Position numbers and translations under genes: made by a program
Source: Lama guanicoe
Lineage: Eukaryota
Assembly (NCBI GenBank): GCA_013239625.1
Contig: MU056277.1
Span: forward strand, 2,148,076 to 2,212,075
Reading direction: 5' to 3'
DNA: 64,000 nucleotides
Shown here: piece by piece, positions 16,501-19,307 of the stretch
Layout: the number at the start of each line of letters is the position of its first letter
Numbering within the stretch: position 1 is the stretch's first letter
The notes under the pieces: generated by a model
Seen by the model: the letters and a program-made list of their open reading frames with translations, nothing else
The model's database searches: none
What the model was told of the DNA's origin: nothing

Positions 16501-19307
16501 TCAGACCAGAAGAGCCAGCTGATCTGCACAAATGACAACGGGGGCTGCGAGCAGTACTGCACTGACCACGCAGAGGCTGGGCGTTCCTGCTGGTGCCACA
16601 AGGGCTACGCACTCCAGGAGGACGGGGTGTCCTGCGTGCCCACAGGTAACGTGTCCTCGGGAACCAGGCCCTAGGGCGGTGTGTGCACTTCCATTTCTGA
16701 TCGTCCTGCCCTGCCACACGTCCCCTCATTGGCCAGATGGGGAGGGAGACATGGCATCACTGAGCATCCCCAGGCGCCGGCACCGTGTGCTCTGGGAGGT
16801 GGGGAGAGAGGCCCAGGTGGAGGCGGCTGCCCCTCCCCAACCCCGAGAGCAGGGAGGGCAGCAGTGCGCAGGGCAGAGCCCAGGGAGCGGCCTCCGGGGT
16901 GCGCCGGGCCCCTGCCCGTCCGGGCAGCTCTCTGCCAGCCCACCTCCACTCCCACGCCAGGCGCTAGATCACCATACCCAGTGTCTGCTGACCACAGCAC
17001 GAGTCTGGATTCCACATCTTGTCAAAGGCAAGTGCTTTTATGAAAATGGAAAATTCCTCCAAACCAACCTCAAATGAAAAGGGCTGCAGCCCGGAGGCTG
17101 GGGCCCCCAGCTCTGTGTCCCCCCAGCTCTGTGTCCCCTCAGCTCTGTGTCTCCCCAGAGGTGGGGTACCCAGCCTTGTCTAAAGGCCTGAAATTCAGTT
17201 GCTGCCCCGAAATGCTTTCTTTTCCGGCCCAGGGGCTTTCTTGGAGCAGGAGGGAAACTAACAGCGGGTCAGAGAGCAGCACGATGGTCTGAATGCCGGT
17301 CGCCTCACACAACATCCCTTACACACTTAGTGACACAGAGGTGGCACGTCTCCCCAGAAGGAGGAGCAGGACCCAGTTTCAGGAAGGGGACCTCTGTTCC
17401 TGCCAAACCAGCCCCTCTGCTGCTGCTCGCCAGGCAGCACCCCAGGGCCTGCCCACGGCCGCGGCAGGAGCAGCGACACAGCCCCCTCTGGGGCCAGTCG
17501 CCACCCACGCCGTCTTGCTGACTTTTGTTTCACACAGTTGAATATCCATGTGGGAAAATACCTGTTCTGGAGAAAAGAAACAACAGCAACCCCCAAGGAA
17601 GAATTGTGGGGGGCAAGGTCTGCCCCAAAGGGGAGTGTCCCTGGCAGGTGAGGCTCCAGCTGCGCCTGGCCATCCAAGCCCGGGTGACCGCATGTCCAGC
17701 CCAGCATTTCCATCGTCCACCAGCCTTCCGCTCCCTTAGCTGGACAGAGCCCCCACCCCTGGAGGGTGCACGGGAAAGGGGAGTCCCCGAGGAAGTGGTG
17801 GTGGTAACGTGACCTTCCACCGTCCGCCAGGCCCTGCTGAAGCTGAACGGGGCACTGCTGTGCGGGGGAGCCCTGCTCGATGTCACCTGGGTGGTCTCTG
17901 CCGCCCACTGCTTCGACCGGATCCGGAACTGGAGGAACTTGACAGTGGTGCTCGGTAGGTTTTGGGGTTACCTCTTTCTGACAGGAGACGGTTCTTGAAT
18001 GACAATTACTCAGGGCTTCGAACCACCAACTTCCGCCACCAGGAGCAATCCCAGCACCCACAGGGCCCCGCTACAGCCGCTGAACCGTCCGCGGTGCCCC
18101 GCCAGGCCCTGCTGAAGCTGAACGGGGCACTGCTGTGCGGGGGAGCCCTGCTCGATGTCACCTGGGTGGTCTCTGCCGCCCACTGCTTCGACCGGATCCG
18201 GAACTGGAGGAACTTGACAGTGGTGCTCGGTAGGTTTTGGGGTTACCTCTTTCTGACAGGAGACGGTTCTTGAATGACAATTACTCAGGGCTTCGAACCA
18301 CCAACTTCCGCCACCAGGAGCAATCCCAGCACCCACAGGGCCCCGCTACAGCCGCTGCCCTCAGCTCTCTCCCTGCAAACCAAGTCATGGGTGACTGCTG
18401 TTCCTGTCTCGCTTGGGCCCAGAGCCCCGGGGGTGCCCCAGCCAGGGCTGCACTGCCTGGGCCTCTGGCTGGTGGGTTTACGGGATGACAAGGACCCCAG
18501 GGGGGCCAGGCAGGTCTGGAAGAAGCAGGGGACCAGGCCCCCCCTCCCCCCTCAGCTGCCTGGCCGACACCCCCTCACATGCCCCCCAGGTTCCAGATTC
18601 CACTACTCCCCACCCCTGACTCACACCCTTGCTGACCCACTAGCAGCCTGGGGTGGGACGCAGGGCTCTCCCACCCCAAAGAAGGGGCCCAAGCGGGCGG
18701 TCTCCCCGCAGGCGAGCACGACCTTGGCCAGCGTGAGGGCGAGGAGCAGGAGCGGAAGATCGCTCAAATCATCGTCCCCGACACGTACGTACCGGGCAAG
18801 ACAGACCACGACCTGGCCCTGCTCCGCCTGGAGCGGCCTGTGGCCCTCAGCGACCACGTGGTGCCCCTCTGCCTGCCCGAGAAGACCTTCTCCGAGCGGA
18901 CGCTGGCCTTCGTCCGCTTCTCGGCCGTCAGCGGCTGGGGCCAGCTCCTGGACCGCGGGGCCACGGCACGCGTGCTCATGGCCATCCAGGTGCCCCGGCT
19001 CCTGACCCAGGACTGCCTGGAGCAGTCGCGCCTGAGGCCGGGGTCGCCTGCCCTCACGGACAACATGTTCTGCGCCGGCTACCTGGACGGCAGCAAGGAC
19101 GCCTGCAAAGGGGACAGCGGGGGCCCGCACGCCACCCACTTCCGGGGCACGTGGTACCTGACGGGCCTTGTCAGCTGGGGTGAGGGCTGTGCGGCCGCTG
19201 GTCACTTCGGGGTGTACACCCGGGTCTCCCGCTACACGGCCTGGCTCCACCGGCTCATGGACTCCCTGCTGCCCTCAGAGGGCCTCCTCCAAGCCCCGCT
19301 CGCCTAG
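13510..19307 (+). CDS. F7: coagulation factor VII precursor, 446 aa when one copy of exon 7 is used
   Basis: exons 70+161+25+114+141+110+124+596=1341 nt; signal peptide, propeptide ..RQRR|ANS, Gla, 2 EGF, R|IVGG activation site, triad AAHC/DLALL/GDSGGP. Confidence 0.98.
14553..14713 (+). CDS. F7: F7 exon 2, propeptide + Gla ([31 protein letters not shown])
   Basis: cag|TC..ACG|gtgag, 161 nt. Confidence 0.96.
15732..15756 (+). CDS. F7: F7 exon 3, aromatic stack EQFWISYN
   Basis: tag|GAG..G|gtgag, canonical 25 nt. Confidence 0.93.
15830..15943 (+). CDS. F7: F7 exon 4, EGF1
   Basis: [38 protein letters not shown], 114 nt. Confidence 0.96.
16505..16645 (+). CDS. F7: F7 exon 5, EGF2
   Basis: [20 protein letters not shown], 141 nt. 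Confidence 0.96.
17104..17158 (+). repeat. minisatellite, ~3 copies of a 16-mer (ccccagctctgtgtcc)
   Basis: direct inspection. Confidence 0.8.
17538..17647 (+). CDS. F7: F7 exon 6, activation site [36 protein letters not shown]
   Basis: cag|TT..CAG|gtgag, 110 nt. Confidence 0.96.
17831..17954 (+). CDS. F7: F7 exon 7 (catalytic His), copy 1
   Basis: [41 protein letters not shown], cag|..G|gtagg, 124 nt. Confidence 0.85.
18106..18229 (+). CDS. F7: F7 exon 7 (catalytic His), identical copy 2
   Basis: identical to 17831-17954, offset 275 bp, with intact AG and GT. Confidence 0.7.
18712..19307 (+). CDS. F7: F7 exon 8, protease domain to stop
   Basis: [38 protein letters not shown]. Confidence 0.97.

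What the first reader, a model, noticed from the sequence alone, without database searches (positions are those of the whole stretch)
17824..18357. Perfect tandem duplication of the F7 catalytic-histidine exon
Seen: two identical 259-bp units 275 bp apart. Each holds the full 124-nt exon 7 with AG and GT sites, separated by a spliceable 151-nt intron. Since 124 is not a multiple of 3, including both copies shifts the frame to a TGA at 18734-18736. That stop is in the last exon, so it should escape NMD and give a Gla-EGF-EGF protein with no Asp102/Ser195. Inference: if real, the gene needs mutually exclusive splicing, or it yields an inactive FVII that might still bind tissue factor, or it is a deficiency allele. 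Zero divergence and a gapped draft assembly make a false duplication at least as likely.
Basis: partly seen in the sequence, partly recalled or inferred. Interest (0 to 1): 0.7.

Follow-up and report, generated by a model that had tools for sequence, protein, structure and literature searches.

The report
False exon duplication from assembly join
A blood-clotting gene (factor VII) shows one exon twice in this draft genome, but this is most likely an assembly error in which two overlapping pieces of one gene were laid end to end, so the animal probably has an ordinary single-exon gene.

Summary
The repeat is in the sequence as described (259 bp, 100%, period 275), and the frameshift stop at 18734-18736 is confirmed in silico. 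It is most likely a false duplication (about 0.92). (1) The unit is not perfect: it is 17819-18082 versus 18084-18357, differing by a 10-nt indel near its start and joined by one extra A. (2) The '16-nt spacer' is the ancestral end of intron 6: read-through ORFs of other mammals fit copy 1's upstream flank joined to the spacer better than copy 1 in 5 of 5 cases. (3) In 2.05 Mb of this scaffold, 4 of 6 head-to-tail two-copy pairs have the same lone A, and 2 are compatible with it. This looks like a pipeline placeholder. (4) All 14 best public DNA runs lack about 5 of 128 words; the junction predicts 3-6. No reads were laid on the junction, so the direct test is open. Earlier notes of this scan list similar unresolved near-perfect tandem pairs elsewhere in this genome (unchecked); none reported this locus.

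The parts
17819..18082 (+). Copy 1 of the repeated unit (264 nt); lacks 10 nt of the ancestral intron-6 end
17831..17954 (+). F7 exon 7, first copy (124 nt; His57 codon 17906-17908)
18083..18083 (.). Lone A between the copies; matches neither the base before copy 1 (C) nor the base after copy 2 (C); inferred placeholder of a contig join
   Evidence: same lone A at three other pairs on the scaffold
18084..18357 (+). Copy 2 of the repeated unit (274 nt); carries the ancestral, longer intron-6 end
18089..18098 (+). The 10 nt present in copy 2 and absent from copy 1 (CCGC microhomology, placement shiftable by 4 nt); probable allelic indel next to the exon-7 acceptor
18106..18229 (+). F7 exon 7, second copy (His57 codon 18181-18183)
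18712..19307 (+). F7 exon 8, coding part: open, with Asp102 motif at 18804 and Ser195 motif at 19110
18734..18736 (+). TGA reached only if both exon copies were spliced in

Best explanation
The doubled exon is most likely an assembly artefact: two overlapping contig ends of one F7 locus, which differ by a 10-nt indel just before exon 7, were probably not merged and were written head to tail with one placeholder base between them. Shown: the unit boundaries, the 10-nt difference, the lone A, that the longer version is the one other mammals have, and that the same lone A recurs at other pairs on this scaffold. Inferred: the left contig ran 264 nt past the start of the right contig. The indel within the first 15 nt of the right contig blocked the overlap. 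The pipeline then put one base in the negative gap (likely a single N later written as A; no N run shorter than 16 occurs in 2.05 Mb). The 10-nt indel is probably a heterozygous allele (about 0.6) rather than a local misjoin over the CCGC microhomology. The animal would then have a normal single-exon-7 F7 with an intact His57-Asp102-Ser195 triad.
For:: unit 17819-18082 versus 18084-18357, only difference a 10-nt gap, one A between; upstream peptides of read-through ORFs from other mammals need 1, 6, 9, 5 and 7 base changes to fit copy 1's flank joined to the spacer, against 6, 12, 14, 14 and 14 for copy 1 as assembled. For 4 of 5 ORFs, 0 of 150 shuffles fit as well. For P0147, P0150 and P0153 the joined form also beats copy 2 as assembled (6, 5, 7 versus 11, 11, 11), so flank and spacer are one ancestral acceptor; of 6 non-minisatellite head-to-tail pairs in 2,054,000 bases, 4 have an unambiguous lone A and 2 are compatible; one of the 4 came from a fresh 190-kb sample taken after the idea was formed. 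Two more near-identical pairs flank N gaps, one of them 255 bp at 100%; 14 of 14 listed runs that hold half or more of the words show 0.96 (123 of 128), none higher; a single-copy gene predicts 3-6 missing words, and the chance that no junction-specific word was sampled is 0.1-5%. PMC9516828 (passages) describes false duplications on one scaffold at heterozygous sites, some joined by incorrect gap filling. PMC5368935 (passages) describes gaps put between overlapping contigs. PMC7849579 (passages): absence of FVII is incompatible with life.
Against: No read or contig was laid on the junction, and depth and read pairs were not seen. The 5 missing words are not located, and one or two private SNPs would give a similar number (P 0.13-0.14). 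There is no N between the copies, so the gap criterion is met only by inference. One of 5 ORFs (P0149) did not beat the shuffles (9 of 150), and 4 of the 9 ORFs found start inside exon 7 and say nothing. Two of the 6 pairs are ambiguous for the lone A. None of the other pairs was checked against reads, and the whole sample is one scaffold (0.1% of the genome). DNA repair polymerases can add a single A (recalled, no call). No same-species protein or assembly was available for comparison (best exon-8 hits 82%).
Confidence: 0.92

Rival explanations
1. A real, private tandem duplication in the sequenced animal, made by end joining or template switching with one added A and a 10-nt microhomology deletion. 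It would be a heterozygous loss-of-function F7 allele giving a frameshifted, likely poorly secreted protein.
For: The sequence can be parsed as a repair junction with local pieces. A private allele would also be missing from the 14 runs. Duplications, insertions, deletions and indels make up about 10% of human F7 lesions (PMC7849579, passages).
Against: It needs two events with no substitution in 259 nt. The 'templated' spacer is simply the ancestral intron end. The same lone A at three unrelated pairs is not expected of independent repair events: four such bases all being A has a chance of 1 in 256 at equal base use (my arithmetic).
Confidence: 0.065
2. A real duplication shared by the species, with mutually exclusive use of the two exons or with a regulated two-exon transcript giving a catalytically dead factor VII that might compete for tissue factor.
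For: Both copies have intact splice sites, and the stop lies in the last exon, so the transcript would be predicted to escape NMD.
Against: No listed run holds all words; all 14 best holders, from 7 named studies plus one run with no study named and 3 organism labels, stop at 0.96. Identical exons give no protein diversity. There is no U12 site and no very short intron. 0 of 89 mammalian F7 proteins carry the exon-7 motif twice (86 once, 3 not matched), though proteins cannot show mutually exclusive exons. The product would lack the exon-8 cysteine that links light and heavy chains (recalled), which argues against secretion.
Confidence: 0.015

Closest known systems
Heterotype false duplication in draft assemblies (PMC9516828; passages seen)
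   Same: Two near-identical copies on one scaffold that differ at an allele-like site; false exon gain inside a gene; possible incorrect gap filling between copies.
   Different: No N gap is left here, only a lone A; depth and read-pair criteria were not tested.
Gaps placed between overlapping contigs by short-read scaffolders (PMC5368935; passages seen)
   Same: Overlapping contig ends with a negative gap that are not merged cleanly.
   Different: The passages seen describe the second contig being split by the gap, and say nothing of a lone A; the assembler used for this genome is not known to me.
Mutually exclusive exons from tandem exon duplication (10.1101/133215; passages seen)
   Same: Neighbouring homologous exons of equal length whose joint inclusion shifts the frame.
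   Different: Copies are identical, the stop falls in the last exon, no U2/U12 mismatch, and there is no sign that the second copy exists outside this assembly.
Human F7 IVS7 37-bp minisatellite at the exon 7 donor (PMC1557585; search listing with start of abstract only)
   Same: A tandem repeat that multiplies an exon-7 splice site of F7.
   Different: It repeats only the donor region in 37-bp units, not the whole exon, and is a real polymorphism.

Membership tests
False duplication (PMC9516828 criteria) | About half read depth on each copy | not tested
   No reads were laid on the locus.
False duplication (PMC9516828 criteria) | Gap, or wrongly filled gap, between the copies on one scaffold | tested here: inconclusive
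   No N; one lone A at 18083, shared with 3 other pairs on the scaffold.
False duplication (PMC9516828 criteria) | Copies differ at an allele-like site (single-copy words on each side) | tested here: met
   10-nt indel at unit positions 6-15; that it is a true heterozygous allele is inferred.
False duplication (PMC9516828 criteria) | Junction words absent from reads; discordant read pairs | tested here: inconclusive
   Indirect only: 5 of 128 sampled words missing in 14 of 14 best DNA holders, 3-6 predicted; missing words not located; read pairs not seen.
Mutually exclusive exons | Neighbouring homologous exons, same length and frame | tested here: met
   Trivially, as the copies are identical.
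Mutually exclusive exons | An enforcing mechanism (U2/U12 mismatch, donor-branch distance under 50 nt, frameshift with NMD, RNA structure) | tested here: inconclusive
   GT-AG sites, 151-nt intron, stop in last exon; no inverted repeat of 30 nt or more at the locus; no branch-point predictor or RNA-fold test was run.
Mutually exclusive exons | Transcripts that use either copy but not both | not testable with these tools
   Identical exons cannot be told apart in spliced reads; RNA runs are held as contigs only.
Coagulation factor VII gene (F7) | Gla, two EGF and trypsin-type domain exons with His-Asp-Ser triad; best hits are named F7 proteins | tested here: met
   (82% to pig and whale F7 over exon 8).

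The most novel reading that the evidence does not exclude
A camelid carries a real whole-exon duplication in F7 whose two-exon transcript escapes NMD and makes a catalytically dead factor VII (Gla-EGF-EGF plus the start of the protease domain) that dampens tissue-factor clotting, with exon skipping supplying the active enzyme.
Probability: 0.02. Interest if true: 0.65.

Novelty: not a real feature. Interest (0 to 1): 0.08.

Why it matters
As biology it does not: the gene is probably ordinary. Two things are of practical use. The lone A between head-to-tail near-identical copies looks like a signature of this assembly's contig joins, and gives a quick test for the other tandem-duplication findings in this genome. 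The 10-nt indel at the exon-7 acceptor may be a real splice-region polymorphism (it would move a candidate branch A from -29 to -19), a small matter for camelid genetics. If the duplication were real and shared, it would be a natural dead-protease form of an essential clotting initiator.

Tried and rejected
Own-genome search found the unit once, so it is not a dispersed repeat or a second F7 locus. Metagenome contig scan with a 31-nt exon-7 pattern: 0 matches, and near-self records may be left out there, so uninformative. Protein searches for a same-species F7: none above 82% for exon 8; cluster look-up of 4 of the 9 read-through ORFs gave one unnamed member each. The word share cannot tell the short allele, the long allele and a heterozygote apart. 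The reading of the spacer as a templated repair insert was considered: its GGTGCCCC piece occurs three more times within 1.5 kb, but orthologues show it is ancestral intron. Literature: three searches on camel or camelid factor VII (listings only) showed no paper on a camelid F7 exon duplication; most subscription journals are not in that library. Look-alike notes in other genomes: none. No structure or complex prediction was run, as the two-exon protein is probably not real. No supplements were read.

Full report
Observation. The window holds an F7 gene on the + strand: tblastn with a whale F7 protein finds the Gla, EGF and protease exons between 14.5 and 19.3 kb, exon 8 is 82% identical to pig and whale factor VII, and both exon 7 and exon 8 match Pfam Trypsin. 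Two 259-nt stretches at 17824-18082 and 18099-18357 are 100% identical, the only exact repeat of 30 nt or more in the window. Each holds the 124-nt exon 7 with AG and GTAGGT; the intron between is 151 nt. With one copy the spliced frame is open to the normal stop and has the His, Asp and Ser motifs. With both it shifts and stops at TGA 18734-18736 in the last exon, after 48 out-of-frame residues. The unit occurs once in the 2.05-Gb, 55,231-contig genome. The clade is not tested here: 'camelid' comes from earlier unchecked notes and from my recall of genome sizes.

The unit is not a perfect repeat. The first 9 nt after the A of the spacer repeat 17819-17827. A global alignment gives the unit as 17819-18082 (264 nt) and 18084-18357 (274 nt), differing only by a 10-nt gap at unit positions 6-15, between CCGC microhomologies, with a single A (18083) between the copies. 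The base before copy 1 and the base after copy 2 are both C.

Which version is ancestral. A search with the exon-7 frame of copy 2 returned 9 short ORFs from unannotated contigs of other mammals. Five read through the end of intron 6; four start inside the exon and were left out. The closest, P0146 (98%, on 7 Logan contigs), has VPRQ before the exon, as copy 2 does and copy 1 does not. I scored the fewest base changes needed to encode each upstream peptide (up to 11 residues, one 1-nt indel allowed). Copy 1 needs 6, 12, 14, 14 and 14. Copy 2 as assembled needs 1, 11, 9, 11 and 11. Copy 1's upstream flank joined to the spacer needs 1, 6, 9, 5 and 7. For four ORFs 0 of 150 shuffles did as well; for P0149, 9 of 150 did. 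So the flank before copy 1 and the spacer before copy 2 are two halves of one ancestral acceptor region, and copy 1 is the version that lacks 10 nt. This is what overlapping contig ends of one locus look like when they differ near the start of the second contig.

The same join recurs. I scanned 2,054,000 contiguous bases of the scaffold (G000:C7267:758076-2812075, window included). Nine rows of adjacent pairs came up at 93% identity or more and 60 nt or more (7, 2). I dropped three as minisatellite-like (1935307, 2129690, 942226). Of the six kept, four have a lone A that matches neither flank (926560, 89 nt; 1298523, 1.97 kb; 1832471, 141 nt; F7), and two are compatible but ambiguous (1679557, where the next flank base is A; 1835234, beside a C run). 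The pair at 926560 came from a fresh 190-kb sample taken after the idea was formed. In the pairs at 1298523 and 1835234 the differences between copies lie mostly in the first half of the unit. Two further pairs sit on both sides of N gaps, one 255 nt at 100% around 1,782 N. The shortest N run in the sample is 16, so one-base gaps are absent as N. My inference is that the pipeline joined unmerged overlaps with one placeholder that now reads A. Four such bases all being A has a chance of 1 in 256 at equal base use (my arithmetic; three of the four prompted the idea). None of these other pairs was checked against reads.

Public runs. Of 24 runs listed, 14 hold half or more of the 128 sampled words; all 14 show 0.96, which is 123 of 128, across 7 named studies (one run names none) and 3 organism labels. 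A single-copy gene lacks 46 words (short version), 57 (long version) or 31 (both alleles) of about 1,192-1,421, which predicts 4-5, 5-6 or about 3 missing of 128; the chance that none was sampled is 0.1-5%. Runs are ranked by share, so a run with the duplication should have stood higher. No reads or contigs were laid on the junction, so depth, read pairs and the junction itself remain untested.

Prior from biology. A review states that absence of FVII or tissue factor is incompatible with life and that large deletions are not seen homozygous, while deletions, duplications and indels make up about 10% of human F7 lesions (PMC7849579, passages). Among 89 mammalian F7 proteins, 86 have the exon-7 motif once, 3 were not matched and none has it twice; this cannot exclude mutually exclusive exons. 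The enforcement routes listed in 10.1101/133215 (passages) are U2/U12 mismatch, donor-to-branch distance under 50 nt and frameshift with NMD. The first two are not evident, and the third would be predicted to fail because the stop is in the last exon. RNA structure was not tested beyond the inverted-repeat scan.

Comparison with what is known. It works like a heterotype false duplication (PMC9516828, passages): same scaffold, allele-like difference, possibly a wrongly filled gap. Membership is not proven, as the depth and read-pair criteria are untested. PMC5368935 (passages) documents negative gaps and gaps put between overlapping contigs, but the passages seen do not mention a lone A. Searches on camelid factor VII (listings only) showed no report of such a duplication.

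Verdict. Assembly artefact 0.92; real private loss-of-function allele 0.065; real shared functional duplication 0.015. The 10-nt indel is probably a real allele (about 0.6, inferred); it would place a candidate branch A at -19 instead of -29 from the acceptor (read). Interest 0.08.

Noticed in passing
L198:8485-8663, L157:448-4384, L090:4396-4678 (G000:C7267 at 926560, 1298523, 1832471): Head-to-tail two-copy pairs (89 nt, 1.97 kb, 141 nt; 97.8-99.3% identical) each joined by a lone A, as at F7; a likely signature of contig joins in this assembly.
   Followed up: partly
L115:1482-3856 and L090:7159-7775: Two more head-to-tail pairs (1,188 nt at 99.7%, unit 74% GC; 308 nt at 97.7%) whose joins are compatible with a lone A but ambiguous.
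   Followed up: partly
L081:1997-4288 and L088:43-895: Near-identical copies on both sides of N gaps (255 nt at 100% around 1,782 N; 297 nt at 98.3% with 259 N between): typical gap-flanking false duplications.
   Followed up: partly
window 18089-18098 versus 17824-17827: 10-nt indel next to the F7 exon-7 acceptor; the longer form is ancestral; the shorter may be a real splice-region allele.
   Followed up: partly
L089:1591-3043: A 1.45-kb minisatellite of 20-nt period with copies about 99.8% identical across the array; unusually homogeneous, could be real or over-expanded by gap filling.
   Followed up: no
window 24153-37760 and 43703-48921: Two further Gla-EGF-protease genes follow F7 on the + strand (tblastn), in the order expected for F10 and PROZ (names recalled, not tested); a 163-N gap at 45784-45946 lies in the second.
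   Followed up: no
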